A stretch of 50,043 nt of DNA from a virus (IMGVR_UViG_3300047508_000210:1-50043), one strand, 5' to 3'; positions 1,323 to 19,338 are shown, counted from the first letter of the stretch. Numbers and translations: made by a program. The notes: a model not told the origin generated them from the letters alone.

Positions 1323-1843
1323 CCCATCGCAAGCCCGGCACCGCTACCATTCTCTCAGTCCGCCCGTTGACCGAGGCGGATTTGTCACATCTACGGGAGC
1401 GCGCTGTCCAGCAACCCATCCAGAAAATGCGTGATAGCCATCATCGCGTCGCCCGACTCATGGCCTCGGGTGTTTACAAAGACTATGAAGTCGCCCGCAT
1501 GTGCGGCTATTCCCTCGCCATGATCGGCCTCCTTCGCCACGACCCAGCCTTCAACGAAACCCTCGCCCACTATCGCGCGCTAGAATTCAACGAAGCCTCC
1601 GACTTCATCGCCCGTGAGCGAGAGGTCATGGAAGACCACGCAGTCAAAGCCAATCGCCGAATCACCGACATCCTCGACGACGAGGACACACCAATCCCCC
1701 TCGAGAAGCTCATCGCCCTCCGCGCTGATGCCCACGACCGCGTTGGCCTAACCAAAAAGCAAACCAACCTAAACCTCAACGTCGACTTCGCCGCCAAGCT
1801 CGAAGCCGCCATTGCCCGTACCAAGAAGGTTGCCGCAGAATGA
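1304..1843 (+). CDS. HTH protein, probable terminase small subunit
   Basis: HTH-like segment (HHRVARLMASG...EVARMCGYS), helical C-terminus, position upstream of TerL. Confidence 0.6.
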   Translation: MSPASLAHRKPGTATILSVRPLTEADLSHLRERAVQQPIQKMRDSHHRVARLMASGVYKDYEVARMCGYSLAMIGLLRHDPAFNETLAHYRALEFNEASDFIAREREVMEDHAVKANRRITDILDDEDTPIPLEKLIALRADAHDRVGLTKKQTNLNLNVDFAAKLEAAIARTKKVAAE

Positions 1844-2205
1844 AACGCCTCGCCCTAGTCGTTGCCCTATCGCTAGGGCTTGCCGTTCCAGGCTTATGCC
1901 AAATCGCCCCGAACACTTGGATCGCGGCGGCATACAACTTCACCAACATCACCACCGACGCAACGACCACGGTCGTCTCCGGGCCCAGCGTCCTCGGCGC
2001 GATCTGTATCAATACCACCGCGTCAACCGAAACCATCACCATCTACAACAACACCGCTGCCTCCGGGACCAAAGTCGGCACCATCACTCTCGGCACTTCC
2101 TCCGGCGGTTGCTATTCCTACAACGCCTACCTCGCTACCGGCCTCACCATCGTCACAGCCGTCGCAGCTGGTGACATTACCGTAATCTGGCATCCCGTTC
2201 CGTGA
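1840..2205 (+). CDS. Small beta-rich protein with Sec signal peptide (putative virion decoration)
   Basis: MKRLALVVALSLGLAVPGLC|Q; Thr/Gly-rich; 2 mature Cys; ATGA-coupled. Confidence 0.7.
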   Translation: MKRLALVVALSLGLAVPGLCQIAPNTWIAAAYNFTNITTDATTTVVSGPSVLGAICINTTASTETITIYNNTAASGTKVGTITLGTSSGGCYSYNAYLATGLTIVTAVAAGDITVIWHPVP

Positions 2206-3092
2206 TACGTTACCTCTTCATATTCCTCTTCCTCCTCGGTGTCACCCCGGCCCCGGCCCAAATGCTATTGCTCGGCTCCAGCAGCCCTGTCTCCAGTGGA
2301 GGCGGCGCCCCAGCCGGATGTACCGCTGCCACCAATTATCTCGCCCGCACAACCGGTGGTAACGAAGGCGGCAACGCAACCAACATCACCACCCTAATCT
2401 GTGGCCTCGTCACCGACGGCGTCATTACTGGCGATCTCTCTGGGGCGACTGGTTGCGGCGCATTCTTCGACGGGCTCTATATCACCGCGCAGCAAAACGC
2501 AACCGACGCCAAACTAAACCTATGCGGGACGAGCTACGGGTTGGGAACAACAACCGCGACGTTCACATCCTATCAAGGTTACTCAGCCTTTCCATCCCCG
2601 CCAATAGACACAGGGTTCAACCCATCCACAGCTAGCGGTCATTTTAACCCCGGCTCGGGGGGTGGGTTTGTTGGCAGCATGTCTGTTTGGGCATACGATG
2701 CGCCAAATAATATACAGGTGGGAACGTCTTCATCTGGCACCAGTTTTACCTATCTTCTTGCTAATTTATCCTCCGTGTTTTATTGTGATATTAACAATTC
2801 CGCCGCTGATAATTCCGTCGCGTCCCCAACGACGAACGGGTTTTATAGCTGCGACCGAACAGGGCAAACCAACACCAATTTATATTTTAACGGCTCTAGC
2901 TTAGGCACAGGTAACGCTGCGGCATCTAACGCCGTAGACAACATTGATCTATTCATCGGAGGTCGTCAAACGGATTTAAGTACCACCAAAACCCTTAGTG
3001 AGGCGAGCTTCGGCGGTCCACTTGGCGCAACCCTTCAAACTGCTCTCTACACCCGCCTCCGCGCCTACATGACCGCGGTAGGTGTGCCATGA
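2202..3092 (+). CDS. Signal-peptide protein with probable ConA/LamG-like lectin domain
   Basis: MIRYLFIFLFLLGVTPAPA|Q; LYFNG..LG and LFIGG strands; 6 Cys. Confidence 0.65.
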   Translation: MIRYLFIFLFLLGVTPAPAQMLLLGSSSPVSSGGGAPAGCTAATNYLARTTGGNEGGNATNITTLICGLVTDGVITGDLSGATGCGAFFDGLYITAQQNATDAKLNLCGTSYGLGTTTATFTSYQGYSAFPSPPIDTGFNPSTASGHFNPGSGGGFVGSMSVWAYDAPNNIQVGTSSSGTSFTYLLANLSSVFYCDINNSAADNSVASPTTNGFYSCDRTGQTNTNLYFNGSSLGTGNAAASNAVDNIDLFIGGRQTDLSTTKTLSEASFGGPLGATLQTALYTRLRAYMTAVGVP

Positions 3093-3191
3093 ATCCAGCA
3101 GCGGTCTCCCCCGCGCTGGTGAGACCCCCGGCCTCGTCGACGTTATTGGGCTTCGTCGACTTGATGGCCGGGGGTCGACCGGACCGCCACC

Positions 3192-4700
3192 ATGGATGAG
3201 AAAGTCATCGCATGGCTCGCCGAAGTCCGCGACGATCCCCTCGCCTTCACCCTTGGCGCCTACCCATGGGGCGTGCCCGGCACGGTCCTCGAAAACTACC
3301 ACGGCCCCGATGACTGGTCCCGCGAACTCATGGAGCGCATCCGTACCGGCCTCCTCACTCCCAATGCCGCAATCCAAGAAGCCACCGCTTCCGGCCACGG
3401 TATCGGCAAATCCGCCACCGTCTCATGGCTCATCATGTGGGCCTTTTGCACTTTCCCCGATTGCCGCGGTACCATCACCGCCAACACCGAAGTCCAGCTT
3501 AAAACCAAAACCTGGTCTGAACTCGGCAAATGGTTCAACCTCTGCTGGTTCGCCCAAGACTCCTTCAACCTCGAAGCAACGGCGTTATTCAGCCGCGACC
3601 CCAACCGCAAATTCACATGGCGCATCGACATGGTGCCATGGTCCAAAAACCACCCCGCCGCGTTCGCCGGACTTCACAACCAAGGCAAACGCATAATCCT
3701 CCTCTTCGACGAGGCGTCAGAAATCGATGACATCATCTGGGAGACTGCCGAAGGGGCGCTCACTGACACAGACACGCAAATCCTATGGCTCGTCTTCGGC
3801 AATCCCACCCGAAACGTGGGCCGATTTCGTGAGTGCTTTGAAGGCGGAAGCCATGCGGAGTCGTGGCATTCCCGACAGATCGATTCACGTACCGTCAAGA
3901 TCACCAACAAATCCCGATTCGAACGATGGATAAAAACCTATGGCGCTGACTCTGACTTCGTTAGAGTTCGTGTTCTTGGACAGTTCCCTCGGCGCGGACT
4001 CCAAGAGTTTTTCTCTGCGAGCGACATCAGCGAAGCGATGTCCCGTGAACTCCCTTACACAGACCGATCTACACCGCTTGCTATTGGAGTTGACGTTGCC
4101 CGTTACGGTGGAAACAACTCCGTCATTTTCCCCCGCAAAGGCCGAGACGCCCGATCAATAGAACGGCAATCCTTCAATGGCCTCTCAACCACCGAACTCA
4201 CCAACAAGATTTTCGAGGCTTGGCAGCGTTGGCGTCCTGATGGTATTTTTATTGATGGCGGCGGTGTTGGTGGCGGCGTCGTTGATCAGTGTCGTAATAT
4301 ACGGCTGGCCGTTCACGAGGTTCAGTTCGGCGGAAAGGATGACATCACCGGCGTCAACGTCGACACTTCCGGCGAGCGCTACGCTAACAAACGAGCGGCC
4401 ATGTATGGGGCCGTTAGGGCTTGGCTCAAGTCCGGGGCCTTGCCCAACGATCCAGAATTAAAACAGGCGATGCTTGCAATCCGCTACACCATCCAAGAAA
4501 AAACCGGGGCGATTCTCCTCATCGCCAAAGAGGATTTGATGGAGGACAATCCAAACCTTGTCCTCGACGATCTTGATGCCCTAGCCTGTACCTTCGGCGG
4601 TCCACTAGTCGCCAGCGCCATCGCCGGTGGCGAGTTCCCCCACCGCGATCTCGTCGAATCCGAATACGATCCCTACGATGCCCAAAGGATAGCGGCATGA
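3192..4700 (+). CDS. terL: Terminase large subunit
   Basis: Walker A SGHGIGKS, Walker B LLFDEAS, GNPT coupling motif, GVDVA nuclease Asp. Confidence 0.95.
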   Translation: MDEKVIAWLAEVRDDPLAFTLGAYPWGVPGTVLENYHGPDDWSRELMERIRTGLLTPNAAIQEATASGHGIGKSATVSWLIMWAFCTFPDCRGTITANTEVQLKTKTWSELGKWFNLCWFAQDSFNLEATALFSRDPNRKFTWRIDMVPWSKNHPAAFAGLHNQGKRIILLFDEASEIDDIIWETAEGALTDTDTQILWLVFGNPTRNVGRFRECFEGGSHAESWHSRQIDSRTVKITNKSRFERWIKTYGADSDFVRVRVLGQFPRRGLQEFFSASDISEAMSRELPYTDRSTPLAIGVDVARYGGNNSVIFPRKGRDARSIERQSFNGLSTTELTNKIFEAWQRWRPDGIFIDGGGVGGGVVDQCRNIRLAVHEVQFGGKDDITGVNVDTSGERYANKRAAMYGAVRAWLKSGALPNDPELKQAMLAIRYTIQEKTGAILLIAKEDLMEDNPNLVLDDLDALACTFGGPLVASAIAGGEFPHRDLVESEYDPYDAQRIAA

Positions 4701-4981
4701 AACTCCCCTTTTTCTACAACGTCATCCTCTGTGACCCCGTCTCCGCGGCCATCGGTCTAGGCGCTGCCCTCGTCGGTACGGCTGGCACCCTTCTCGCCCC
4801 AAAGCCCAAAACCCCTGCTCCACCCAACGTCCCTGCTCCCCCACCCCCAATCCAACAACCCCAAGGCACTCCCGCTACCGCCGGTGGTACCCAACAAGCC
4901 CCATCCTTCCTCGCCGCTGCCGCTGCCCCTGCCCAAGCCAATACCATCGGCGGTGCTGGCAAAACCCTCCTCGGCCAATAG
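4697..4981 (+). CDS. Small Pro-rich pre-portal virion protein
   Basis: CDPVS N-terminal motif, Pro-rich linker, KTLLG C-terminus typical of pre-portal genes in this phage type. Confidence 0.65.
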   Translation: MKLPFFYNVILCDPVSAAIGLGAALVGTAGTLLAPKPKTPAPPNVPAPPPPIQQPQGTPATAGGTQQAPSFLAAAAAPAQANTIGGAGKTLLGQ

Positions 4982-4984
4982 CCC

Positions 4985-5155
4985 ATGGCCCTCGTTGTTC
5001 CCATTCGCAAGGATGTCCCCGCCGCCCCTCAAGGCCCAATGTCCACGACCCAACCGCCCGATCCCAACTTCCTCCTCATGGCCGCTGCCCTAATGCATCG
5101 CGACGGCCGACTGATTAAGAAAGACTCCGTTGGCAAAGACCAACAACCCCAGTAA
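4985..5155 (+). CDS. Hypothetical protein (56 aa; below ORF-track cutoff)
   Basis: Manual translation MALVVPIRK...KDQQPQ*; fills the gap before the portal. Confidence 0.55.
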   Translation: MALVVPIRKDVPAAPQGPMSTTQPPDPNFLLMAAALMHRDGRLIKKDSVGKDQQPQ

Positions 5156-6899
5156 AGCCAGAGCGGTTGGGCCCATTCGCCCAATCACCGAGGCTGATTA
5201 TTCCTACCATCGCTATTGCGAGGGGCGACTTATCGCGCTCCGCGTCAACCGTTATTCATGGTGGGTCCACTGGCGCGAACTCGCGGACTACACCCTCCCA
5301 CGGAGGTACAAATGGCTGATCACCCCAAACCAGATGGCACGCGGAGCCCCGATCAACCAGCACATCCTCGACTCAACTGGAACGATCTGCGCACGCAACC
5401 TCGCTTCGGGCCTTGTCAGTGGGAAATCATCGCCAACCCAGCAGTGGTTTCGGCTGAAAATTGGGAAGTTAGATTCTACTCAGACTTCGCCCGTGAGTTT
5501 ATGGCTCGCTGAGTGTGAACGCCTGCTCTATCTCATCTTCGCCGAGTCCAACTTCTACACCGCCATCGGGGTTTTCTACTTCGACCTCGTTGTCTTCGGC
5601 ACCGCGGTCACCCTCGAATACCCCGACTTCAAAACCGTCGTCAACTTCATCAACCCATGCCTTGGCGAATACTACGTCGACATCGACGGCAACTACCGCC
5701 CCTGCGTGTTCTATCGCGAATTCACCATGACCGTCGACGCCTGCGTCTCGGAGTTCGGCCTTGAAAACTGCAGCGCCCCGATCCAAGAACTCTACCTCGA
5801 CCCAAGTGGAGCCAACCGCACTCGCGAACTTATTGTCGCCCATTCCATTGAGCCCAACGACGATGGCAATGCTCGAGCTTTTAACTATGATGCCAGCTGG
5901 GCTTACCGAGAAGCTTATTGGGAATGGGGCGGAAGCACTTCGCCTCAGGGAGGCGCTACGGCTCCTCCTGGATTCCTACGCAAGCGCGGCTACAACGAAA
6001 ACCCGGCTATCATAGGGAGATGGGACATTGTCTCGAACGACCCGTACGGTCGATCGCCTGGTATGGATGCGCTACCAGACATTAAGCAAATCCAACTGGA
6101 ACAACGCCGCAAGGCGCAAGCTATTGATAAGATGGTCAACCCGCCGCTGGTGGCCGATGTGCAACTTAAAAACCAGCCAGCGAACCTTACACCGGGTGGC
6201 ATTACGTACGTCGCAGGGTTTACTTCTGGAGGTAAACCAGGTTTTGCATCCGTTTATGAAACCAAATTCCCCGTGCAGGAAATCACCCAAGATTTGATGG
6301 AGGTGAAGCAACGTGTCAGTCAGGTCTTCTTTAATGATGTCCTCAAGGTTGCCAGTCAGTACGAAACCCGGTCTAACGTTACAGCTGTCGAGTGGGACCT
6401 ACGTAAGTCAGAAGCCTTGGTCATGTTGGGGCCTGTTCTTGAGCGCATCGATACCGAGGTTCTCAAACCCATCGTTGAACGGACTTTCAACATTGCTAAC
6501 CGAGCCGGTGTCCTACCGCCTCCCCCACCCGAGGTCCAAGGACAAATGCTTAACATCGAGTTCATTTCTATGTTATCCCAGGCTCAACAAGCCACTCAGT
6601 CCGGTTCTATTGAACGAATGTTTACGATAGGCGCCCAACTCGCGGGCATCGACCCCTCCGCCATGGACAACATCGACGTTGACTATGGCCTAGATAAGAT
6701 GTCCTCCCTCCTCGGCAATGACCCCAAGATGATCCGCTCGCCCGAAGCCCTTGCCGCCATCCGCAAACAACGCGCCGACCAAATGGCACAAGCCCAGCAG
6801 GCCGACATCGCCAACAAACTTTCCGCCGGGGCAAAGAACCTCTCCACCGCCCCACAACCCGGCTCTCCCCTCGAGTCCATGATGGGAGGTAGCCAGTAA
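5130..6899 (+). CDS. Portal (head-to-tail connector), BPP-1/T7-type
   Basis: WRELADY.LP, YGRSPGM.ALPD, TA.E, LGPVLER motifs; start uncertain. Confidence 0.95.
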   Translation: MAKTNNPSKARAVGPIRPITEADYSYHRYCEGRLIALRVNRYSWWVHWRELADYTLPRRYKWLITPNQMARGAPINQHILDSTGTICARNLASGLVSGKSSPTQQWFRLKIGKLDSTQTSPVSLWLAECERLLYLIFAESNFYTAIGVFYFDLVVFGTAVTLEYPDFKTVVNFINPCLGEYYVDIDGNYRPCVFYREFTMTVDACVSEFGLENCSAPIQELYLDPSGANRTRELIVAHSIEPNDDGNARAFNYDASWAYREAYWEWGGSTSPQGGATAPPGFLRKRGYNENPAIIGRWDIVSNDPYGRSPGMDALPDIKQIQLEQRRKAQAIDKMVNPPLVADVQLKNQPANLTPGGITYVAGFTSGGKPGFASVYETKFPVQEITQDLMEVKQRVSQVFFNDVLKVASQYETRSNVTAVEWDLRKSEALVMLGPVLERIDTEVLKPIVERTFNIANRAGVLPPPPPEVQGQMLNIEFISMLSQAQQATQSGSIERMFTIGAQLAGIDPSAMDNIDVDYGLDKMSSLLGNDPKMIRSPEALAAIRKQRADQMAQAQQADIANKLSAGAKNLSTAPQPGSPLESMMGGSQ

Positions 6900-7312
6900 T
6901 GTACAATGCCTCCGATCGCAAGCAAATCCGCGCGGCCGAGAAAGCGGCCCAACGCAGCGACCTATCCAAAATCGAATTCCTCAAGTCCATGCTCGCATCC
7001 CCAGGCGGTCGCCTGTGGTTCTACGATCTCCTCGAATCTTGCCACCTCTTCTCCGACATCCCCACCTTCGAGCCCTACAAAGACGCCTATCGCCAAGGAG
7101 AACGCAACGTCGGGTTGCGTATCTTCTCCGACATAATCACCAACTGCCCCGACCAGTACATCTCCATGATGAAGGACGCCAATGCCCGAAGATCAGAACT
7201 CGACGCAGCCATCTCCCCCGACCGAGAGCCCGCAGCCGAATACGACCGAAGCCCGGACCCCAGATGGGACGCTCAAGGACCAGAGTTCCCTCCAACCAGC
7301 GGTAACGAATGA
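6899..7312 (+). CDS. Bbp19-like phage protein
   Basis: SPGGRLWFYDLLESC...AYRQGERNVGL; position after portal. Confidence 0.8.
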   Translation: MYNASDRKQIRAAEKAAQRSDLSKIEFLKSMLASPGGRLWFYDLLESCHLFSDIPTFEPYKDAYRQGERNVGLRIFSDIITNCPDQYISMMKDANARRSELDAAISPDREPAAEYDRSPDPRWDAQGPEFPPTSGNE

Positions 7313-7850: not shown

Positions 7851-7927
7851 ACCAGACCCCGTCGTGGGTTGAACAGCTTCGCTCAGACTGGCAAATGCAC
7901 ATACTCTAACCCTAGGACACAACTCAA

Positions 7928-8971: not shown

Positions 8972-9014
8972 TGGGATCATCGCTGACCTCCCTCATTCAC
9001 AAGGACCCTTCATC

Positions 9015-9572
9015 ATGATCCTCGACGGACTACTCACCTTCACCGGGACTTCCAACGGCGCATCGGGCGGTATCACACTCGGCGCACAGACGGACGCTCC
9101 CACCACCGGCACTCAGATCGCATCCAACATCATCGACCTCGGTGTTACTTCCGGCGTCCCCTCCTCAGCCAACGGCGGTGGGGCTCGAGACATCGGCATC
9201 GGCGACGATCCGGCAATGAAGCTCTCTGCCATCTGCCCCATCGCTTGGGTCGGCGGCACGAGCGTTCAGCTTGAACTTGACGGCGCCCCAGACAATGGCT
9301 CAGGTGCTCCCGGCTCCTACACCGTTATGTGGACGGGGCAGGCAGTCCTGACCGCGGCCCTCGTCGCCGGTGTGCAAATCGCCAACGTCGACGTTCCTCG
9401 CGTCGTCCCAGGACAGGTACTCCCCCGCTTCCTTCGCCTTCGCTTTATCACCGTCGGCACCTACACCACCTCGTCCATCGAGGCGCAGATCGTGCTTGAC
9501 CTTGATCAGCAAATCCAAGGCGCGGCTGGGGTCTATTCCGGCTATCCCGCTGGCACCACGGTCGCAAACTAA
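9015..9572 (+). CDS. Capsid cement protein (Bbp16-like)
   Basis: MILD..L.F, SNIIDLG, RFLRL motifs; directly after capsid. Confidence 0.8.
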   Translation: MILDGLLTFTGTSNGASGGITLGAQTDAPTTGTQIASNIIDLGVTSGVPSSANGGGARDIGIGDDPAMKLSAICPIAWVGGTSVQLELDGAPDNGSGAPGSYTVMWTGQAVLTAALVAGVQIANVDVPRVVPGQVLPRFLRLRFITVGTYTTSSIEAQIVLDLDQQIQGAAGVYSGYPAGTTVAN

Positions 9573-9585
9573 AGGAGCAATCGCT

Positions 9586-10212
9586 GTGAAGAAACTTCTC
9601 CTCACCACAGCGATTGTGCTGGGGCTTTGTGCCCCAGCCTTCGCTCAGAGCGTCAACTTCGTCCCGCAGGTCGGAACGATTAACGCCATCGTTAAACAAA
9701 ACACCTACTCCGCATCAGGCGTGTTGATGGTGCCAGCAGCATCTGCCACCGATCTCATTTGCCTGAATGGCTCAACCTCCAAGAACGTATCCCTCAAAGA
9801 GATCATCGTCTCTGGATCAGCCGGTACCGCCATCACCACCCCGATCTTGGTTAATCTAAACCACAGCCTCGATACGGGTGGTACCGCCAACACCGGCCTT
9901 GCGTTGCCAGTGGCGGTGCCCCTAGTCACCACCAACCCAGCGGCCACCGCAACCCTAACCTCCTACAGCGCCAACCCGACCGTCAACGATGCCACCCCGA
10001 ACCTCCTCGCGGTGTTCTCGCCAACCTTCGCAGTCACAACCACGGCACAGCCAATCACCATCTTCCCCGGCTCTACCGCGATTGACTGGTTTGCGCAGGG
10101 CTTTGACATCCTCAAAGCCGGGACGGTTGTCCAGCAAATCTGCCTCAACCTCGATGGGAAAACCATCTCAACGGGTTTGATCAACGTTACCATGATCTGG
10201 ACGGAGAACTGA
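9586..10212 (+). CDS. Beta-rich protein with Sec signal peptide (putative capsid decoration)
   Basis: AAGGAG then GTG 9586; MKKLLLTTAIVLGLCAPAFA|Q; 2 mature Cys. Confidence 0.75.
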   Translation: MKKLLLTTAIVLGLCAPAFAQSVNFVPQVGTINAIVKQNTYSASGVLMVPAASATDLICLNGSTSKNVSLKEIIVSGSAGTAITTPILVNLNHSLDTGGTANTGLALPVAVPLVTTNPAATATLTSYSANPTVNDATPNLLAVFSPTFAVTTTAQPITIFPGSTAIDWFAQGFDILKAGTVVQQICLNLDGKTISTGLINVTMIWTEN

Positions 10213-10215
10213 ACC

Positions 10216-10770
10216 ATGGCCCGATGGAGACTATCAACCTCCCACTACCTCCGCGTTGTGGAGAAGTGGGAATGGGAATACAAGCAGGTCAATCGCAAAA
10301 CCGGGCGTGAGGATCGCAAGCGGATGGAAGTGCCGCGGTTTCTCGACATCAACGATCCGGCTGATTGGACGGTGAAACCCGAAGGCGTCAGCACCGCCCA
10401 CGGTGGTAACATGGACGACGTCGCCGGTATCATCATCGTCTGCCACGAAGGTAAGGGCGATCCTGCCGATGTCGAGTTCATCGGCGAACCAACGCCTGAA
10501 ATGATCCCGATCGACGACGAGGCCCGTGCCATCACCGCGACCTTTGAGGAAAAGTGGCGCTACAAACCCGAAGGCATGGAAATCTCCCACTCCCAATCCA
10601 TGATCGACAGGTTTGAAACCGATATGGCTGAGCTTAAGGATCGCGCCTCGATCCCGCAGCAAATGGTCATCCCGGGGCTCGAGGATTTGGTCAAGGCCAT
10701 GACCATCCTCACTACCAACCAAGCCGTGATGATGGAGAAGCTCTCCAAACCAACCCCTCGGTTAGGATAA
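10216..10770 (+). CDS. Hypothetical protein
   Basis: 184 aa ORF with RBS (GGAG), in operon. Confidence 0.75.
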   Translation: MARWRLSTSHYLRVVEKWEWEYKQVNRKTGREDRKRMEVPRFLDINDPADWTVKPEGVSTAHGGNMDDVAGIIIVCHEGKGDPADVEFIGEPTPEMIPIDDEARAITATFEEKWRYKPEGMEISHSQSMIDRFETDMAELKDRASIPQQMVIPGLEDLVKAMTILTTNQAVMMEKLSKPTPRLG

Positions 10771-10774
10771 CGCC

Positions 10775-11182
10775 ATGCCCTCCGCTTTCGACGTAGCGCC
10801 GGTAGGCCCCACTTCAGGTGGCAAAGTCTACGCGTTTAACAACCTCGGTACTACGCCGGAAGTGGTGGCTCCGGCCAATCCTGCTCGAGCCTCGATCCGA
10901 TTCGATAACCAAGGAACGGTGGATGTCATCATCTTTCCTTGTAACGTCCAAGCCCTGAACCCAAGTTGGGTTGCGACCAGTACACTCCAAGGCGGGGTGA
11001 GCGGGAGTGTTAATCTCTCCAACGTCGCCCTCTCGCCCAATACCACCACACTTGGTGGTGGTTATCGCATCTTCGCCAATGGTGGCTTCATCATCTTCGC
11101 CGGTGAATGTCAGGGCTCCTTCCAAGCCCTTGCAATTACTGGCTCGGGCAATCCTCTCACAGTCACGGACTCGAACACGTGA
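10775..11182 (+). CDS. Beta-rich putative structural protein (no signal peptide)
   Basis: AGGA RBS; ANPAR.SI.F.N.G strand pattern. Confidence 0.7.
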   Translation: MPSAFDVAPVGPTSGGKVYAFNNLGTTPEVVAPANPARASIRFDNQGTVDVIIFPCNVQALNPSWVATSTLQGGVSGSVNLSNVALSPNTTTLGGGYRIFANGGFIIFAGECQGSFQALAITGSGNPLTVTDSNT

Positions 11183-13347
11183 GAAAGCTTCTTTTAATTC
11201 TAGCTCTCCTATGGGCTGTTTCAGCAACGGCCCAACAGCAGGTATTCTGTCCAACCCGCCCGCCGGGTGATAATACCAATGCCTGTGCTAGCACCGCATT
11301 CGTGCAGGCTGCGGGTGGTGGTGGAGGTGGAGGAAGTCTTAGCGTTACGGATGGGACCCATACAGTTACCGGCACAACGGCCCTAACCTTCTCCGGTCCG
11401 GTGACAGTCTCCGGTTCAACCCCCAACGCCACAGTCACAGTCTCGCCCGGGGCGGTCACCATCACCAACAACTCCACCGCCGTCTCCGGTTTCACCAACG
11501 GCGATGTCCTCACCAACAACGGCTCCGTCGTCACCCAATCCAGCCCAACGATCACCGTCAACGGCACCAACTGCACGCTCGGGGCTTCTTGCTCCCCCAC
11601 CAATCCCACCTCCGCCAACATCCCCAACGCCTCTGGCTCGGCCGCCTTCACCGCGGGTTCCATCTCCGCGACATCCCACACCCTCACTCTCTCCGCGGCC
11701 CAAGACTTCACCAATGGTCAAGGCATCCGCATCAACCACGCAGGCGCGGCCTTCACCCTCAACCCACCCACAGGCGGGACCGTCACCCCTCTCGGCGCTG
11801 CGGGCTCAACCACTTACCAATACAAAATCGCCTCTGTCGACGCAGCGGGTGGGATAGGCGCAGTCACCGCCAGCTTCCAAACCACCGTTGCCCCGGCAAC
11901 TCTATCAAACCAAAACGCCAATCTCCTCAACTGGACAGCCCCGGCCTCGGGCACTCCCCCAACCGCCTATGCGATTTACAAAAATATCTCCGGGACCTAC
12001 ACCCTCGTAGGCTTGGCGGACTCCCTCCTTGAATGGGCCGACGAGGGCCTAACCGGCTTCCCATTCTGCGACTGGCTCCCAGCCACAGCCCCGGCCAGTC
12101 CGCTTGCCGATGCCCTTACCACCACCATCTCCGCGGGTGGCGGGACTACAAGCCTAACCCTCGCCGCCGCAGCCACAACCACTGCTAGTAACCAAGGCGT
12201 CTACCACGACGACTCAGCCGCGATTCAAGCGGCGTTGAATGTATCTGGAGTCCACCAAGTCACCGCCCCAACTGGCACATTCTACGTCGACACCAATTCC
12301 AACATCCCTACCGGCGTTCAATTCTCCGGCCAACGTTACGGTACCACTTTCAAAACCGTCTTCCCCAACCAGTCCGCCTTCTCAATCGGCGGCAATGCCT
12401 TCCTCAACGGAGCATTCTCCGACGCAATCTTCCAACTCGTCCCAGACAGTAAGGCTGTGAATCTAGTCAGCCCGGCAAATGCCAGGGTCAATGACATCTG
12501 GTGTCAGGGCGGTTCCACTGGTTGGGTTGCTACCCCCGCCTGTGTCTACACCACCGGCGGCGGTGCTGATATAACCATAGCCCACCTTATCATGGACGGC
12601 TGGGGCGGGGCGGTCAGCAATCTCGCCATACCAACCGGCGGCGATGTCCCGACCATCACCATGGATGGCACGGGTGAGGTGCTAGGCATCAACATCTCCG
12701 ATGTAATCATGACCAACGATTCCAGCGTTGGCACACTCAGCACCTACATCGCGTTTAATGATTGTTTCAACTGCAACCTCTCCACCGCTGTCCTCAATGC
12801 GAACTTTGGCGCCTCAGGCTCGGACATCTTCGGCACAGCGGGTGTTGGTGTTATCAACGGCAGTCAAGCGGTTCATATAAGCAACATCCAAACCTTGGGC
12901 TTTGATACAAACATCGTAATGGGCGGCACTGGCTCTGCCCCACTCCAGATGGATGTGACCGGTAGCCATTTCGACTTCTGCGGAACGGATTGCATCAACC
13001 TCTCCACCGGGAGTTGGGTGACGATCACCGGCAATACCTTTGATGGTGAAGGTAATTCCCCGTGGCTACTAGTTGGCAACCACGGCATCCACACTTCAGG
13101 CTCATTCACAGCAGGCCCAAATACAATCACCGGCAATGCCATCAAAGACTTCTCTGGTTCCGGCTCAAGCGCTATCCAGTTCACTTCCGCGATGAACGAT
13201 ACCATCGTCGGCGCTAATGCCATGACAAGCAATGCCACGGACGTCTCTGGCGGTACCGGTGGCACAGGCTCAGCCATCGGCCAGAATTGCTCCGGATCGC
13301 CCACCGGCAGCTTCTCCTCTCGTAACGGAATTGTGGGGCATTGCTAA
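11179..13347 (+). CDS. Tailspike-like protein with signal peptide, FN3/Ig-like domain and right-handed beta-helix
   Basis: GTGA-coupled start; MRKLLLILALLWAVSATA|Q; DDSAAIQAALN...P.GTFYV beta-helix cap; ITGN repeats. Confidence 0.8.
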   Translation: MRKLLLILALLWAVSATAQQQVFCPTRPPGDNTNACASTAFVQAAGGGGGGGSLSVTDGTHTVTGTTALTFSGPVTVSGSTPNATVTVSPGAVTITNNSTAVSGFTNGDVLTNNGSVVTQSSPTITVNGTNCTLGASCSPTNPTSANIPNASGSAAFTAGSISATSHTLTLSAAQDFTNGQGIRINHAGAAFTLNPPTGGTVTPLGAAGSTTYQYKIASVDAAGGIGAVTASFQTTVAPATLSNQNANLLNWTAPASGTPPTAYAIYKNISGTYTLVGLADSLLEWADEGLTGFPFCDWLPATAPASPLADALTTTISAGGGTTSLTLAAAATTTASNQGVYHDDSAAIQAALNVSGVHQVTAPTGTFYVDTNSNIPTGVQFSGQRYGTTFKTVFPNQSAFSIGGNAFLNGAFSDAIFQLVPDSKAVNLVSPANARVNDIWCQGGSTGWVATPACVYTTGGGADITIAHLIMDGWGGAVSNLAIPTGGDVPTITMDGTGEVLGINISDVIMTNDSSVGTLSTYIAFNDCFNCNLSTAVLNANFGASGSDIFGTAGVGVINGSQAVHISNIQTLGFDTNIVMGGTGSAPLQMDVTGSHFDFCGTDCINLSTGSWVTITGNTFDGEGNSPWLLVGNHGIHTSGSFTAGPNTITGNAIKDFSGSGSSAIQFTSAMNDTIVGANAMTSNATDVSGGTGGTGSAIGQNCSGSPTGSFSSRNGIVGHC

Positions 13348-16300
13348 TGCGCCGTTTACTCATAGCTCTATGCATCTGGCTACTAGCTGGTGCACCCGTC
13401 TGGGCGCAGTTCAACGGCCAGTCCGGCATCTACGCGCTGAATCATATGTGGTTCAGCATCATGGCGCAGAACCTAACCGTCGCCACACCAGGCTCTGGTT
13501 ATGCCACCAACGACACCGTCACCCTCGATTGCCCCGATACCAATATCTTCCAAACCCCGCATACAACCCGTCCAGTAGTCACTTGGAACGGAAGTTCATG
13601 GACCCTCACCAATCCCGGCGTTTCAACCTCCATCCCATCAACCGGACTAGCTGGGGGCAATAACGGAACCTGTGTCTTAACTCAATTCGCAACATCGGGT
13701 ACGGGTTCAGGCGTTAGTTTCAACGCCACCTTTGGTTTCAACGCCGCATCGTTGAACGGTAGCAACTCGGGTGGGGGAGGTGGAGGTAGTGGCATTACCA
13801 TCGGCACCACCACCATCACCGGCGGAGTTAACGGCGAGTGTATATACGACAACTCCGGAGTTGCTGGGGTTATAACCTGCGGCGGCGGGGGAGGTGGTTC
13901 AGTCACGGTCTATGCCACGCATGCCGCGTTGATCGCAGGGACCACAACGCTAGGAACGGGGCCAATAGTACAACAGGGTTTTACGGCTACGGGCGATGGC
14001 GGTCAGGCGGTTTATCAGCCGAACGCCTCATCCTATTGCCCCGGCGGGTCATCAGGCTCGCCAACCGCCGCTGACGGACTCACCTGTATTCTTCCTTCTG
14101 GGCAAAGCGCTAGCACGGCTGGCCGATACCTTCTACAAGTGTCCGGCGAGATTGATGTTCGTGTGGTGGGAATGCAGCCCGGAGGGCAGGATAATAGTCC
14201 GTACGTTGCGGCATTACTAGCTGCGGCCGGTCCTGTGCTTAATAATGGCCCCGGTCCGGTCTTTGTTTTCCCTCCACTTCTTGGTTTAAACTATACATAC
14301 TGGTATTTCTCCAGTCAGCTCACTGCTTCTGTTGGGGGACAATTTGATTGTCGCGGGCACGTATCGGAGCAGTCTGGCGCGTCTGTGCTGGTCTTTGCCC
14401 CAGGTACTAACGGAGTCGTGCAGGCTAATACCGGAGGGACAGGCCAGACTGATATAAGCCGTTGCACAATCACATCTCTCGGTGGAGGAACCGCTGCAAA
14501 CCCGACCTTCGGGTCGAGCACTATAAATAACGTTAGCTTAAACGGCCTTCTCGGGGGAATTTTCACCTTCCCATCAGCCTGCACTCCGGTCGGCGGGCAA
14601 TGCACCTTTGGTGTTGGCGATGGGGTCATCATGGCTTCTCAAAGCGCCATGATGACTGCTCCTGGCGCGTATGTGAGTGCGGTGTCTGGGCGGACGCTAA
14701 CCCTAGCATCTCCTTACACCATCCTAGCTACGGCAGCGGCCATTCCAACGAGAATTTTCGATCTTCCCGTGAGTCAAAAATACACCATCCAAACAACAAC
14801 TGGCAGCAATTCAGCGACCGTAACCGCAGGTCCGCGTCCCTTGGAACCGGGGGATATGCTCTGGTCCGACGCCTTCCTGTTCGGGGCGACCGTGCTTACC
14901 GTGAGCAATTCGACCGCTTTTCCCCAAACAATCACCGTGTTCGATGTAACGATGACGAGCCACGCTAATGCGCTGGTTACTCACACCGGCGGGTCTCCGG
15001 GACAAATGTGGATAGCCCCGGCCGGGGTGGAAAGACAGGTGCAGGGTTCCTTGCATCAAGATGCAGTAACATTTTTCCCGTTTGAACTAAGATTGTCTTG
15101 TTCAGCCTCCACCGTTCCCGCGGGTGGATGCAACGGAAGCTTTGACCAAGAGAATAGCTTACAGTTTGGACTGATTGGCCGATTAACTCGTGGCGATAAC
15201 ACGGGTGGCAGCACTATTATTAGCAACGTGTACGCGCAGAATGCGCTTATGGACGAAGTGGAGGCGGGAACAATCGGAAGCACTTATGTTGGCGAAGAGG
15301 ACAATAGCCAAGATAGCGGCACGTCGGCATATGGGACAATAACTTTCTGCACCGGAACTAGCGCAACAACATACATCGGATCATACCTATCTGGTCAAAG
15401 TCCTAACGCTGTCTGCCTGGGACTTGATGCGCAAAGCAATCCATCGATTGTTGCGACGCCCGTAAATGGGCAGGCGGCCTTGTTTCTTGGGCCGCTGTTT
15501 GGTTCGCCCCCGCCGTCAATTGTCGGGGGTGAGATGACGGGGGCTTGGAGTTTCCAAGGCCCAAGCACTGCAACCGTGGTGGCCACCACCCCAACCGCTT
15601 CCGGTACTGTGATCGCTGTTCCGACTACTATTCAGGTGCAAAACGGGACCAAAATTACTGATCTCACTAACGCGGTTATTCCAGTTAATACGACCATCGT
15701 ATCACACGCTGTTAATACGGTAACTTTATCAAACGCACTAACGGGTGGGGGTATTCTTACCAATGATATTATTCAATATTCGAGTGATGGTGTTGGAAAC
15801 CCCTCTATCCACATAAACGGTGGTATTGGGGCTAATGCGGGGGTATCGTTTGATCCCAATACATCATCCTTGTATAATCTTCTCATGCAGTTTGATGGGT
15901 ATGTAGGTTCATGGGATTTCGGCGCCATGCGCTTTGGCGGATTGCTTTACCAAGGTTATAACCCAGGTGGCGTATCGAACTTTATAGTGCTGCCTGGCGG
16001 GGCCACGATTGGGAATAACTCCGAAGATTTTACCGGGATGGAGAGGCTTCTTGACGGTGGCAGTGTCCAGCCAACTGATCCCACGCATCTTCAGGGTGAT
16101 ACGCGGATAAATAGCAAGCCTTTGCCTGGGGGGAATCTGGCTTGGACAGACGCAGCATCGTTCTCCACGTCGCTAACCGCGAATGTTACTGCCGGCGTGA
16201 CGACTTCGGTTGCGGTTGCGGCTTGTCCCTCGCCATCGCTTCCGGCTGGTACGCCGATTGTCGCGTATCAGAACTACCAGATTTCAGGACTGGTAGTCTT

Positions 16301-16724
16301 GGATCAGCCTTTGGGAACGCTATCTTCATGCTCCGGTACGACCCTGACATTCCAAGCCGCTGCGGCTTATAATAGTCTAAGCAGCACTGTGATCCGGTTC
16401 TTGCAATGGCAGAAAGCGGGGATAATTCAGGACGGCATTCCGAGTATTTCGTCTTGCGGTACCGGAACGCCGACCGTAACAGCGGGGTCGAATAATATCG
16501 GCGGTCAGTTCACTATGGGGACTGGAACGCCAACCGCCTGCACAATTCTATTCGCTCACGCTTACCCGAACGTTGGCTTTTGTACCGTGACCCCAGTGTC
16601 TTCCGGCGGTGCGGCTATTACGGGTGGCTATTACCTTTCTACTGCGAATAACACCGGGTTTGTGTTGACGTTGGGAACCGGCACTTCTAGTCTTGTATTC
16701 GACTACACCTGTACGGGTAACTAA
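13347..16724 (+). CDS. Large tailspike/fibre-like protein with signal peptide (1125 aa)
   Basis: TAATG-coupled; MRRLLIALCIWLLAGAPVWA|Q; GF...GDGG spike neck motif; 20 mature Cys; C-terminal beta-sandwich. Confidence 0.8.
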   Translation: MRRLLIALCIWLLAGAPVWAQFNGQSGIYALNHMWFSIMAQNLTVATPGSGYATNDTVTLDCPDTNIFQTPHTTRPVVTWNGSSWTLTNPGVSTSIPSTGLAGGNNGTCVLTQFATSGTGSGVSFNATFGFNAASLNGSNSGGGGGGSGITIGTTTITGGVNGECIYDNSGVAGVITCGGGGGGSVTVYATHAALIAGTTTLGTGPIVQQGFTATGDGGQAVYQPNASSYCPGGSSGSPTAADGLTCILPSGQSASTAGRYLLQVSGEIDVRVVGMQPGGQDNSPYVAALLAAAGPVLNNGPGPVFVFPPLLGLNYTYWYFSSQLTASVGGQFDCRGHVSEQSGASVLVFAPGTNGVVQANTGGTGQTDISRCTITSLGGGTAANPTFGSSTINNVSLNGLLGGIFTFPSACTPVGGQCTFGVGDGVIMASQSAMMTAPGAYVSAVSGRTLTLASPYTILATAAAIPTRIFDLPVSQKYTIQTTTGSNSATVTAGPRPLEPGDMLWSDAFLFGATVLTVSNSTAFPQTITVFDVTMTSHANALVTHTGGSPGQMWIAPAGVERQVQGSLHQDAVTFFPFELRLSCSASTVPAGGCNGSFDQENSLQFGLIGRLTRGDNTGGSTIISNVYAQNALMDEVEAGTIGSTYVGEEDNSQDSGTSAYGTITFCTGTSATTYIGSYLSGQSPNAVCLGLDAQSNPSIVATPVNGQAALFLGPLFGSPPPSIVGGEMTGAWSFQGPSTATVVATTPTASGTVIAVPTTIQVQNGTKITDLTNAVIPVNTTIVSHAVNTVTLSNALTGGGILTNDIIQYSSDGVGNPSIHINGGIGANAGVSFDPNTSSLYNLLMQFDGYVGSWDFGAMRFGGLLYQGYNPGGVSNFIVLPGGATIGNNSEDFTGMERLLDGGSVQPTDPTHLQGDTRINSKPLPGGNLAWTDAASFSTSLTANVTAGVTTSVAVAACPSPSLPAGTPIVAYQNYQISGLVVLDQPLGTLSSCSGTTLTFQAAAAYNSLSSTVIRFLQWQKAGIIQDGIPSISSCGTGTPTVTAGSNNIGGQFTMGTGTPTACTILFAHAYPNVGFCTVTPVSSGGAAITGGYYLSTANNTGFVLTLGTGTSSLVFDYTCTGN

Positions 16725-17082: not shown

Positions 17083-17128
17083 TGCCCAATGGACAATCAA
17101 CCGCAGCAGGAAAGTAAGGAGAAAGCTC

Positions 17129-18529: not shown

Positions 18530-18530
18530 C

Positions 18531-19312: not shown

Positions 19313-19338
19313 CACCTAACTTGATGGAATAGGCTGCA

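What the first reader, a model, noticed from the sequence alone, without database searches (positions are those of the whole stretch)
1840..16724. Virion-module genes encode Sec-exported, Cys-paired spike and decoration proteins
Seen: five genes in the morphogenesis operon start with a basic-hydrophobic-small residue signal followed by Gln: 1840 (GLC|Q), 2202 (APA|Q), 9586 (AFA|Q), 11179 (ATA|Q), 13347 (VWA|Q). Hand-counted mature Cys numbers are 2, 6, 2, 13 and 20; in the 1125-aa protein they fall in neighbouring pairs. They include both tailspike-like proteins, and no signal-less fibre gene is evident. Known: tailed-phage fibres normally fold and attach in the reducing cytoplasm without signal peptides. 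Inference: receptor-binding and decoration proteins are exported, disulfide-bonded in the periplasm and dock on particles during or after release, a compartment-split assembly pathway. Alternatively they act on the infected cell surface. This is my best candidate for an undescribed system.
Basis: partly seen in the sequence, partly recalled or inferred. Interest (0 to 1): 0.9.

Follow-up and report, generated by a model that had tools for sequence, protein, structure and literature searches.

The report
Phage fibre proteins carrying export signals
An uncultivated short-tailed phage and many of its relatives put classic bacterial export signals and paired cysteines on their fibre- and spike-like proteins, which suggests that these parts mature outside the cytoplasm where the particle itself is built.

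Summary
The window is a complete 50-kb podovirus genome of the epsilon15/BPP-1 type. All five named genes begin with a textbook Sec/signal-peptidase-I leader followed by Gln, and the hand-counted Cys numbers (2, 6, 2, 13, 20) are exact. A sixth such gene lies at 40648-42486 on the minus strand.

The leaders are conserved in homologues: 114 of 120 for the 208-aa protein and 75 of 95 for the 1125-aa family. Every 722-aa relative that shares its N-terminus also has one. Mature chains have even Cys counts far more often than chance. Thirty of 34 environmental sister phages carry at least one such gene between cement and adaptor, against 0 of 3 cultured relatives. Export and disulfide bonding are therefore well supported in silico.

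Docking on virions is only partly supported. The 722-aa protein is a beta-helix that starts with a known tail-fibre motif. Its N-terminal module co-varies with the small signal-less protein encoded just upstream. A second type of that small protein occurs fused to signal-less fibres in sister phages. No other fibre gene exists.

The small exported proteins look like portable accessories, not proven decorations. The fold of the 1125-aa protein was not determined. My literature searches found no precedent in tailed phages.

The parts
1840..2205 (+). SP1: 121-aa exported small protein, 2 mature Cys, inserted between the terS-like gene 1304-1843 and terL
   Evidence: 3 of 3 homologues in related loci are also flagged as signal-bearing. 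Weak sub-threshold Pfam hit only (GldM_2nd).
2202..3092 (+). SP2: 296-aa exported protein, 6 mature Cys; its start overlaps the SP1 stop
   Evidence: Residues 83-282 match phrog_18498 (unknown function, E 7e-9). Its 2 homologues in related loci lack a signal; one is a 541-aa protein inside a fibre gene cluster of L040.
9015..9572 (+). Context: cement protein (Bbp16 family), signal-less
   Evidence: Pfam PF21190 Bbp16, E 6e-8.
9586..10212 (+). SP3: 208-aa exported jelly-roll protein with two invariant Cys (C59, C186)
   Evidence: family of 527 proteins, 114 of 120 listed flagged. AF2 pLDDT 79.6. Only generic jelly-roll matches, best Z 9.3.
10216..10770 (+). g10216: conserved signal-less 184-aa protein of the clade, function unknown
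   Evidence: 47 homologues in related loci, 0 flagged. No Pfam, PHROG or NCBIfam hit.
10775..11182 (+). g10775: conserved signal-less 135-aa protein; candidate virion-side docking partner ('type A') of SP4
   Evidence: Its stop overlaps the SP4 start. In 15 of 18 related loci with a next ORF in reach, that ORF has a hydrophobic leader followed by the fibre motif. It is also present in sister phages without a fibre gene there (L028, L059).
11179..13347 (+). SP4: 722-aa exported protein. Leader 1-18, Cys-flanked tail-fibre motif 24-42, Gly-rich linker, low-confidence strand-rich region to about 150, then a right-handed beta-helix to about 700; 13 mature Cys
13347..16724 (+). SP5: 1125-aa exported protein, 20 mature Cys. 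The N-terminal module (about 21-135) is shared with proteins of other lengths. Fold not determined
   Evidence: No Pfam or PDB sequence match. Absent from the closest relative L012 (MCP 98% identical). GC3 0.53 against 0.64-0.75 in core genes.
19339..20493 (+). Context: tail adaptor (T7 gp11-like)
   Evidence: phrog_394, E 7e-29.
20500..23391 (+). Context: tail nozzle (T7 gp12-like)
   Evidence: phrog_376, E 1e-140.
40648..42486 (-). SP6: sixth signal-bearing protein (612 aa, AIA-Q, 6 mature Cys), among replication genes. Repeats suggest a beta-helix, but it was not folded
   Evidence: No family, PDB or viral-contig relative found.

Best explanation
This is a mixed model with three tiers of support. 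(1) Well supported. The phage routes six proteins through the host Sec translocon. Signal peptidase I cuts before Gln, and the chains fold in the oxidising periplasm with disulfide bonds. (2) Inferred. SP4, and probably SP5, is the distal depolymerase or receptor-binding part of a tail fibre that has been split from its particle-side anchor. The small signal-less protein encoded just upstream (g10775) would be built into the particle in the cytoplasm. The exported beta-helix protein would expose its conserved N-terminal fibre motif only after leader cleavage, and would dock on that partner when lysis mixes the two compartments. (3) Weakest. The small exported proteins (SP1, SP2, SP3) and the early-region SP6 are portable exported lectin- or enzyme-like accessories. 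Whether they end up on particles is open.
For: Export and disulfides. The n/h/c leaders are conserved while their sequences drift: SP3 family 114 of 120, SP5 family 75 of 95 representatives of 600 aa or more, and SP4 family 34 of 58, including every member that shares the N-terminus. Mature Cys counts are even in 109 of 117, 31 of 34 and 68 of 75 members, against 12 of 23 in signal-less SP4 relatives (Fisher p 0.0013). Extra Cys in the SP3 family come as pairs (2 or 4). Clade-wide: 30 of 34 environmental sister loci have at least one such gene between cement and adaptor, against 0 of 3 cultured relatives. Fibre identity. The SP4 model is a beta-helix (pLDDT above 85 for most of residues 150-700). 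It resembles tailspikes of CBA120, Sf6, HK620 and LKA1 as well as secreted glycanases. Its mature N-terminus is a Cys-flanked version of a motif that, in the signal-less protein L086:6119-6844, matches annotated tail fibre proteins of cultured phages at 58-73% identity over about 35-40 residues. The same beta-helix family also occurs behind ordinary signal-less fibre N-termini (P0126, P0142). Docking. Type-A small proteins (g10775 family) are followed by a fibre-motif N-terminus in 15 of 18 loci and never by the other type. This counts 11 Cys-flanked, 2 Cys-free and 2 degenerate copies. Type-B small proteins (141 aa) are followed by a different N-terminus beginning Q-C-N-G-V-F in 4 of 6 loci and never by the first type. 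The C-terminal parts range from 345 to 859 aa. Type B is homologous to the N-terminal 137 residues of signal-less 841- and 565-aa fibre-like proteins in sister phages (31-41% identity, E 1e-9 to 1e-18). Start and stop codons overlap, indicating coupled translation. No other fibre candidate exists, and the canonical tailspike slot is empty.
Against: No tailed phage is known to assemble this way, and five literature searches found none. Exported proteins and cytoplasmic particles cannot meet before lysis. The best structural matches of SP4 are secreted bacterial enzymes (GH87, AlgE4, RbmB). Co-variation of adjacent gene ends may reflect linkage rather than binding, and several loci are near-duplicates (L006/L007, L021/L023). 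g10775 has no detectable relation to the type-B anchor (hhalign probability 0.7%) or to any solved structure. The C-terminal parts of the fused proteins do not match the signal-bearing proteins. Sister phages L028 and L059 keep g10775 with no fibre gene beside it. SP6 lies outside the virion module. The SP3 family also occurs in an unrelated prophage head module. All signal calls rest on a home-made heuristic.
Confidence: 0.45

Rival explanations
1. The proteins are exported but are not virion parts. They would be periplasmic or lysis-released glycanases and lectins. They could act on the infected cell's own envelope polysaccharides, destroying receptor or capsule from within, excluding superinfection or keeping progeny from sticking to debris. 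Alternatively they could diffuse as soluble depolymerases. The particle would then bind its host through the adaptor, the nozzle or g10775.
For: This model needs no crossing of compartments. SP6 sits among replication genes. SP1 and SP2 are inserted between terS and terL, and an SP5 relative sits before terL in L003, which is cargo-like placement. SP5 is absent from the closest relative L012. The SP3 family occurs in an unrelated Paraburkholderia prophage head module. Small exported proteins persist in sister phages whose fibres lack signals (L031, L040, L080, L086). The top structural matches of SP4 are secreted enzymes. Sister phages L028 and L059 have no fibre gene in the slot. Published precedent, from passages I read: Porphyromonas gingivalis prophages encode signal-bearing proteins with Gln at +1, read there as envelope modifiers (PMC10367356).
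Against: It does not explain why the N-terminal module of the large exported proteins is conserved and matches the type of the upstream signal-less protein while the catalytic part varies. It also does not explain why that module is a tail-fibre motif, or why the type-B small protein is a fibre N-terminus elsewhere. It would leave a 50-kb podovirus with no fibre or spike gene at all. Six genes, 18% of the genome, would be spent on non-structural exoproteins.
Confidence: 0.35
2. The hydrophobic N-termini are not cleaved export signals. They would be uncleaved membrane anchors that tether fibres at the inner membrane, or artefacts of start-codon choice, and the proteins would fold in the cytoplasm like ordinary fibres.
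For: The record's own gene call for SP4 starts 74 codons downstream and lacks the leader (P0122). No SignalP run or experiment is available. A few homologues lack a basic n-region (L071, P0159).
Against: The leader and the adjoining motif are conserved in frame across homologues. The SP3 GTG start has a canonical AAGGAG. A small-x-small site followed by Gln is kept in nearly all members, which an uncleaved anchor would not need. The even-Cys bias points to an oxidising compartment.
Confidence: 0.07
3. They are morons: autonomous lysogenic-conversion genes lodged in the late operon of a temperate phage, expressed from the prophage for the host's benefit.
For: Signal-bearing genes in tail regions of temperate phages are known (lambda lom and bor, cor of T1/phi80; recalled, not checked here). 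The SP3 relative in Paraburkholderia is in a prophage-like region of an isolate genome.
Against: No integrase or repressor domain turned up among the ORFs scanned; the genome has direct terminal repeats and a family-A DNA polymerase module. The genes overlap their neighbours' stop codons. Promoter-like and terminator-like sites are no more frequent than in shuffles (15 against 10.6 ± 3.3, and 25 against 20.5 ± 4.5). GC3 of SP1, SP3 and SP4 equals that of core genes.
Confidence: 0.05

Closest known systems
Two-part podovirus spikes: an anchor or adaptor protein on the tail plus separately encoded tailspikes that dock through a short conserved N-terminal module
   Same: A small particle-side protein is encoded next to a large beta-helix protein. 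That large protein has a conserved N-terminus and a freely exchanged C-terminus. Fused and split forms both occur in sister phages.
   Different: In the known systems both parts are cytoplasmic. Here the distal part carries a cleavable Sec leader and paired cysteines. No sequence relation of g10775 to any known adaptor was found.
Bdellovibrio bacteriovorus MAT fibres (PMC10769870; passages read)
   Same: These are phage-tail-fibre-like proteins that carry a signal peptide. It is followed directly by a conserved beta-rich module of about 130 aa and then by variable fibre and tip domains. SP5 has the same layout, and C-terminal tips of Bd2133 appear among the weak structural matches of SP3 (Z 6.5-6.6).
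   Different: MAT fibres are cellular adhesins of a predator, not phage genes. Homology with SP5 was not tested because no MAT N-terminal sequence was at hand.
Filamentous-phage g3p and g8p (recalled)
   Same: They are virion proteins, including the receptor-binding one, made with cleavable Sec leaders; g3p is disulfide-bonded in the periplasm.
   Different: Inoviruses assemble by extrusion at the membrane. This is a tailed, HK97-fold podovirus whose capsid and tail are cytoplasmic.
Signal-bearing accessory genes in phage late or tail regions: lambda Lom and Bor, Cor of T1/phi80, T5 Llp (recalled); Q-rule proteins of Porphyromonas gingivalis prophages (PMC10367356; passages read)
   Same: Exported proteins encoded among structural genes, with Gln after the cleavage site in the P. 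gingivalis case.
   Different: Those are one or two small envelope proteins per phage, mostly in temperate phages. Here there are six, including the only fibre or spike candidates, translationally coupled to structural genes of an apparently virulent phage.
Cultured relatives with the same capsid and tail module: phiV10/epsilon15, Limnohabitans phage DC33, Pseudomonas phage Shamal
   Same: Portal, scaffold, GP7-type capsid, Bbp16 cement, adaptor, nozzle and internal virion proteins in the same order. MCP identity is 48-53%.
   Different: They have one or two small genes between cement and adaptor, and a signal-less tailspike or fibre after the internal proteins. My heuristic flags 0 signal-bearing ORFs there. 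The window instead has a 10-kb insert that holds SP3, SP4 and SP5.

Membership tests
Sec / signal peptidase I cleavable signal peptide | Short n-region with net positive charge | tested here: met
   MKR, MIR, MKK, MRK and MRR in the five proteins, MK in SP6.
Sec / signal peptidase I cleavable signal peptide | Uncharged hydrophobic h-region of about 10-17 residues | tested here: met
   13-17 residues in each protein.
Sec / signal peptidase I cleavable signal peptide | Small residues at -3 and -1 of the cleavage site | tested here: met
   APA, AFA, ATA, VWA and AIA before Gln. SP1 is ambiguous. The consensus rule is recalled.
Sec / signal peptidase I cleavable signal peptide | Features kept in homologues although the leader sequence drifts | tested here: met
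   114 of 120, 34 of 58 and 75 of 95; 34 of 35 in related loci.
Sec / signal peptidase I cleavable signal peptide | Positive call by a trained predictor, or demonstrated cleavage and export | not testable with these tools
   No SignalP here; only a heuristic of my own was used.
Lipoprotein (signal peptidase II) signal | Lipobox ending in Cys with a small residue at -1 | tested here: not met
   Only SP1 has a Cys at the end of its leader, preceded by Leu (P-G-L-C). The others have no Cys at the site. The lipobox consensus is recalled.
Tat signal | Twin-arginine motif within a long n-region and a weakly hydrophobic h-region | tested here: not met
   SP5 has RR directly after Met, followed by a strongly hydrophobic stretch. 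The others have no RR. The consensus is recalled.
Phage tailspike / depolymerase | Right-handed parallel beta-helix | tested here: met
   SP4 only: AF2 model; Foldseek probability 1.0 to CBA120 TSP3, Sf6, HK620, LKA1 and Dettilon spikes, and to secreted glycanases.
Phage tailspike / depolymerase | Same fold in the 1125-aa protein | tested here: inconclusive
No Pfam or PDB sequence hit for it or for 7 relatives. The Atlas gives 'tail fiber' leads at 0.86-0.87 only.
Phage tailspike / depolymerase | N-terminal particle-binding module | tested here: inconclusive
   The N-terminal motif is conserved and co-varies with the upstream small protein, but binding is not shown.
Phage tailspike / depolymerase | Presence on purified virions | not testable with these tools
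   No cultured relative carries these genes: no match in 50,697 phage records for SP3, SP4 or SP5.
Tail-fibre N-terminal motif (P-T-x-x-P-G-D-N-x-x-x-x-A-[ST]-T-A-F-V type) | The motif is present and shared with annotated tail fibres | tested here: met
   SP4 residues 24-42. The Cys-free version in L086:6119-6844 matches tail fibre proteins of Pseudomonas, Ralstonia, Dinoroseobacter and Microcystis phages. SP4 itself gave no direct hit.
Moron | Own promoter and terminator; composition unlike the neighbours; temperate phage | tested here: not met
   Consensus promoter and terminator sites are at chance level. Start and stop codons overlap. GC3 of SP1, SP3 and SP4 is like core genes, while SP2 and SP5 are lower. 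No integrase domain was found in the ORFs scanned.
Capsid cement / decoration protein | Relation of SP3 to a known decoration family, or specificity for one capsid type | tested here: inconclusive
   The Bbp16 cement is the neighbouring gene, not SP3. The SP3 jelly-roll matches are generic: Ralstonia GP4 and Pam1 capsid chains at Z 7.0-7.5, among many unrelated folds. The family also occurs beside a different capsid type, PF09950.
Type IX secretion cargo | C-terminal sorting domain | tested here: inconclusive
   No Pfam or NCBIfam hit of that kind in any of the six proteins.
Bdellovibrio MAT fibres | Homology of the module that follows the signal peptide | not tested
   Only the architecture is alike.

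The most novel reading that the evidence does not exclude
A large clade of uncultivated podoviruses builds its particle in two compartments; at least 597 viral contigs share the capsid gene. Capsid, tail and a small fibre anchor assemble in the cytoplasm. The receptor-binding and depolymerase fibres are exported by Sec, trimmed to an N-terminal Gln, oxidised to disulfide-bonded proteins in the periplasm, and snap onto the particles only when lysis merges the compartments. Leader cleavage would act as the switch that exposes the docking motif.
Probability: 0.4. Interest if true: 0.9.

Novelty: new variant of a known kind. Interest (0 to 1): 0.77.

Why it matters
Tailed-phage morphogenesis is taught as a purely cytoplasmic process. 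Receptor-binding proteins that must pass through Sec and the host's disulfide machinery would add host factors (SecYEG/SecA, signal peptidase I, DsbA and possibly glutaminyl cyclase) to the list of what a phage needs. Such fibres would have stabilising disulfides that the cytoplasm cannot provide. Infectivity would then be acquired only at or after lysis.

This also matters for annotation. Gene callers and host-range predictors may discard or truncate such genes; the record's own call for the 722-aa gene lacks the leader. Recombinant depolymerases from this group may need periplasmic expression to fold.

If the rival is right instead, the finding is a phage that spends 18% of its genome on exported envelope-active proteins, which would itself be unusual.

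Tried and rejected
- **Family searches.** PHROGs, Pfam and NCBIfam gave no informative hit for SP1-SP6, g10216 or g10775. Seven SP5 relatives also had no Pfam family.
- **PDB sequence searches.** SP4, SP5, SP6 and the profiles A3, A4 and A6 found nothing below E 0.001.
- **Cultured phages.** tblastn or blastn found no match for SP3, SP4, SP5 or the g10216-g10775 DNA, and one weak match for SP2.
- **SP6.** It has no relative in viral contigs by pattern scan.
- **hhalign.** The g10775 family showed no relation to the type-B anchor family or to the two small phiV10 proteins in the same slot.
- **BLASTP of SP4 against SP5.** No similarity.
- **SP3 fold.** Foldseek against PDB found nothing at E ≤ 0.001. 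VIA-align gave generic jelly rolls only. BFVD gave uncharacterised phage proteins.
- **Complex prediction.** g10775 × 3 with SP4 residues 20-110 × 3 returned 'no answer' (median 0.30, mark 0.32). I do not count this for or against binding.
- **Host from the Gln-at-+1 rule.** All six proteins have Gln at +1, as in Bacteroidota (PMC5837995, abstract and passages). However, that paper compared only five phyla. The phage uses clear Shine-Dalgarno sites: 24 of 42 starts by a loose pattern, with AAGGAG before SP3. SP3 relatives lie in records titled Paraburkholderia, Burkholderiales and Edaphobacter. The host is left open.
- **Promoter and terminator scan.** Not above chance.
- **Protein Atlas.** Leads for SP5 are below 0.9, and g10775 matches only unnamed viral clusters.
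- **Literature.** Five full-text searches found no description of Sec leaders on fibres or spikes of tailed phages. I also read passages of PMC10975493, the phi24B preprint, PMC3517404 and PMC3556154. Supplements were not consulted, and subscription journals are not covered.
- **Longer fused forms of SP3.** Only two were found: one 488-aa signal-less repeat-rich protein and one 369-aa protein with a leader.

Full report
**What the window is.** The window is a whole virus record of 50,043 bp with direct terminal repeats. The plus strand from about 1.3 to 33 kb carries these genes:
- A terS-like gene and the large terminase.
- A T7-type portal and a scaffold.
- A GP7-type major capsid protein and a Bbp16-type cement protein.
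- A tail adaptor, a nozzle and four internal virion proteins.

The minus strand from 33 to 48 kb carries a family-A DNA polymerase, an exonuclease/UDG protein, a DUF3987 protein, a PD-(D/E)XK nuclease and an AAA_24 protein. No integrase domain was seen in the ORFs scanned.

The capsid protein is 48-55% identical to those of phiV10/epsilon15-like, Pseudomonas, Xanthomonas, Bordetella and Limnohabitans phages. No tRNA gene was found.

**Check of the observation.** The five ORFs exist at the stated coordinates. Each begins with two basic residues, then 13-17 uncharged hydrophobic residues, then a small-x-small site followed by Gln.

A simple n/h/c-region scorer of my own ranked them at the top of all ORFs of 60 aa or more in the six frames. 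Three other ORFs came close:
- A 95-aa membrane protein at 16795.
- An alternative-frame ORF at 23419.

The SP3 GTG start follows AAGGAG at the right distance. SP2, SP4 and SP5 start on or within the stop codon of the gene before them.

The mature Cys counts are exactly as hand-counted: 2, 6, 2, 13, 20, plus 6 for the sixth protein. Cys content is 1.0-2.2%, against 0.54% in 20 signal-less structural proteins.

**Conservation of the signals.** The 208-aa protein (SP3) belongs to a family of 527 metagenomic proteins, many on contigs of 47-51 kb.
- Of the 120 listed, 114 passed the heuristic. Two of the six misses are truncated at the N-terminus, and four have obvious leaders that fall just under a threshold.
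- The leaders differ in sequence but keep their charge, hydrophobicity and cleavage-site character. The mature N-terminus (Q-V-N-x-V-P-Q-V-G) and two Cys are nearly invariant.

For the 1125-aa protein (SP5), an exhaustive HMMER search found 467 cluster representatives. Of the 150 listed I dropped the 55 shorter than 600 aa, since many are fragments. Of the remaining 95, 75 passed. Several of the 20 misses show a leader behind a mis-called start.

For the 722-aa protein (SP4), 34 of 58 relatives passed. All those that share its N-terminus have a leader followed by the same Cys-flanked motif. The relatives that share only the beta-helix often have ordinary fibre-like N-termini with no leader.

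The record's own gene call for SP4 starts 74 codons downstream. The conserved upstream sequence shows that call is too short.

**Cysteine parity.** After removal of the leader, the Cys number is even in:
- 109 of 117 SP3-family members.
- 31 of 34 SP4-family members.
- 68 of 75 SP5-family members.

The signal-less relatives of SP4 are even in only 12 of 23 (Fisher p 0.0013). In the SP3 family the counts are 2 (97 members) or 4 (12 members), and the extra pair appears together.

Family members are related, so the p-values overstate independence. Even so, the pattern is what disulfide-bonded extracytoplasmic proteins show.

**The clade.** A pattern scan with the capsid protein hit at least 597 viral contigs. 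The best 80 are 83-98% identical.

On these loci the heuristic is specific:
- Flagged 0 of 86 capsid, 0 of 66 portal, 0 of 80 scaffold, 0 of 47 g10216 and 0 of 24 g10775 proteins.
- Flagged 34 of 35 SP3 homologues.
- False calls through internal starts: cement 5 of 62, adaptor 2 of 19, terminase 1 of 41.

Thirty-eight loci, including the window, have at least 5 kb after the capsid gene. Of the 34 environmental sister loci among them, 30 carry at least one signal-bearing ORF between cement and adaptor. The three cultured relatives (phiV10, DC33, Shamal) carry none.

Two of the four zero loci (L071, L086) have leaders that the strict rule missed.

In all, 188 flagged ORFs fell into several families:
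- The SP3 family, in 32 loci.
- A family of about 160 aa, in 29 loci.
- A family of about 141 aa, in 25 loci.
- Beta-helix-type large proteins and others.

In cultured relatives only one or two small genes separate cement from adaptor, and the tailspike follows the internal virion proteins. In the window that last slot holds only two small ORFs, and a 10-kb block with SP3, SP4 and SP5 sits between cement and adaptor.

**What the proteins look like.**
- SP3 folds, with an alignment of 38 sequences, into an eight-stranded jelly roll (mean pLDDT 79.6). Foldseek against PDB found nothing at E ≤ 0.001.
- A search independent of Foldseek gave only generic jelly rolls: best Z 9.3 to a nanovirus coat. 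Around Z 7-8 it found a 7-7-1 tail-fibre tip, capsid-associated chains of Ralstonia phage GP4 and cyanophage Pam1, XepA/YomS and TNF/C1q domains. That does not decide a function.
- In BFVD, SP3 resembles uncharacterised phage proteins, including parts of 1323- and 1474-aa virion proteins.
- Sequence search for longer forms found two. One is a 488-aa signal-less, repeat-rich protein with the SP3 domain at its C-terminus. The other is a 369-aa protein with a leader.
- SP4 folds into a confident right-handed beta-helix from about residue 150 to 700. The N-terminal 150 residues are of low confidence as a monomer.
- SP4 matches secreted glycan-active enzymes (GH87 glucanases, AlgE4, RbmB) and tailspikes (CBA120 TSP3, Sf6, HK620, LKA1, Dettilon), all at probability 1.0 but low TM-scores.
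It has no family or PDB match, so calling it 'tailspike-like' remains unverified.
- SP4 and SP5 are unrelated in sequence.

**Evidence bearing on virion association.**

First, the mature SP4 N-terminus (residues 24-42) is a Cys-flanked version of a motif that also occurs in sister phages. It is Cys-free right after a leader in L021. It is also Cys-free in the signal-less 242-aa protein of L086. That L086 protein matches annotated tail fibre proteins of cultured Pseudomonas, Ralstonia, Dinoroseobacter and Microcystis phages over exactly this motif, and 'tail collar' proteins over its C-terminal part.

Second, the gene upstream of SP4 is g10775 (135 aa, no leader, conserved in 24 other loci). 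It is followed, usually with overlapping codons, by a gene for a leader plus this motif in 15 of the 18 loci where a next ORF is in reach. That count is 11 Cys-flanked, 2 Cys-free and 2 degenerate copies. The rest of the downstream protein varies from 345 to 859 aa.

Third, some sister phages have a different small protein at the same position: type B, 141 aa, starting near D-L-D-Q-G-G. In 4 of the 6 such loci with a next ORF, it is followed by a leader plus a different N-terminus (Q-C-N-G-V-F...). The two types never cross.

Fourth, type B is homologous to the first 137 residues or so of signal-less 841- and 565-aa fibre-like proteins in L086 and L080 (31-41% identity, E 1e-9 to 1e-18). The same module is therefore a fibre N-terminus in some phages and a free-standing protein next to an exported protein in others.

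Together these points suggest a fibre split into a cytoplasmic anchor and an exported distal part.

Limits of this evidence:
- Types A and B are not detectably related.
- The distal parts of the fused proteins do not match the exported ones.
- Adjacent gene ends can co-vary through linkage alone.
- L028 and L059 keep g10775 without a fibre gene beside it.
- The one complex prediction gave no verdict.

**Evidence bearing on the rival.**
- SP6 lies among replication genes.
- SP1 and SP2 are inserted between terS and terL, whereas L006 and L007 have these two genes adjacent. An SP5 relative with its own leader sits before terL in L003.
- SP5 is missing from the closest relative L012 and has lower GC3 than the core genes.
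- SP3 relatives, leader included, occur in records titled Paraburkholderia, Burkholderiales and Edaphobacter. There they sit between a Mu-F-like gene and a DUF2213 gene, in a head module with different portal and capsid families.
- The small exported proteins persist in sister phages whose fibres have no leader.

For SP1-SP3 and SP6, an accessory exported role is therefore at least as likely as a place on the particle.

**Comparison with what is known.**
- Split anchor-plus-spike designs are known in podoviruses, but both parts are cytoplasmic (recalled).
- Sec-exported, disulfide-bonded receptor-binding virion proteins are known in filamentous phages, which assemble at the membrane (recalled).
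- Signal-bearing, fibre-like proteins with a conserved module right after the leader are known in Bdellovibrio as cellular adhesins (PMC10769870, passages read).
- Signal-bearing accessory genes among structural genes are known in temperate phages. Porphyromonas gingivalis prophages encode proteins that follow the Gln-at-+1 rule (PMC10367356, passages read).
- Five full-text searches found no report of Sec leaders on the fibres or spikes of a tailed phage. This is not proof of absence.

**Verdict.** Export and disulfide bonding are well supported in silico.

Post-export docking of SP4 (and perhaps SP5) is the explanation I favour, at about 0.45. A non-virion exported role stands at about 0.35. 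The 'decoration' reading of the small proteins is unsupported.

Whichever is right, the system departs from cultured relatives and is worth an experimental test.

Noticed in passing
window 40648-42486 (-): A sixth signal-bearing protein (612 aa, Gln at +1, 6 mature Cys) with repeat patterns suggestive of a beta-helix lies among replication genes. No relative was found in viral contigs, and no family hit.
   Followed up: partly
window 9572-19339, compared with L090, L091 and L092: Cultured relatives have only one or two small genes between cement and adaptor, and keep the tailspike after the internal virion proteins. The window has a 10-kb block between cement and adaptor, and only two small ORFs (32367-32756, 32765-33139) in the usual tailspike slot.
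   Followed up: yes
window 16795-17934: Small membrane proteins lie directly after SP5: 95 aa at 16795-17082 and 66 aa at 17734-17934 with several hydrophobic spans. They could be holins. No endolysin or spanin was recognised by PHROGs.
   Followed up: partly
window 13347-16724 and 2202-3092: SP5 and SP2 have lower GC3 (0.53, 0.57) than the core structural genes (0.64-0.75). SP5 has GC skew near 0, against -0.12 to -0.25 for its neighbours. SP5 is absent from L012, whose capsid protein is 98% identical. This looks like a recent acquisition.
   Followed up: partly
window 11179-13347: The record's own gene call for this gene (P0122, 648 aa) starts 74 codons downstream and omits the leader and the fibre motif that are conserved in homologues.
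   Followed up: yes
L012:12256-14340; P0124, P0125, P0129, P0132: A sub-group of SP4 relatives has an extra segment of roughly 10-14 residues (ending H-A-I-A-Q) between the hydrophobic leader and the fibre motif, as if there were a second processing site.
   Followed up: no
L091 (PQ492659.1): Limnohabitans phage DC33 carries the same HK97-type capsid, adaptor and nozzle module, yet its record's taxonomy line places it in Inoviridae. This is probably a mislabel.
   Followed up: no
L009 compared with L010: A 6-kb contig of a MAG titled Edaphobacter is collinear with the Paraburkholderia prophage-like head module. The host assignment of that contig may be a binning artefact.
   Followed up: no
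window 19339-20493: The adaptor (384 aa) has an insert of about 120 residues (roughly 147-269) that is missing from the 278-aa adaptors of L006 and L007. It could be a surface domain.
   Followed up: no
all signal-bearing ORFs of the window and of L002-L008: Gln follows the predicted cleavage site in 6 of 6 window proteins and in nearly all flagged proteins of the related loci. This is the pattern described for Bacteroidota, yet the phage uses Shine-Dalgarno sites. The host phylum is unresolved.
   Followed up: partly
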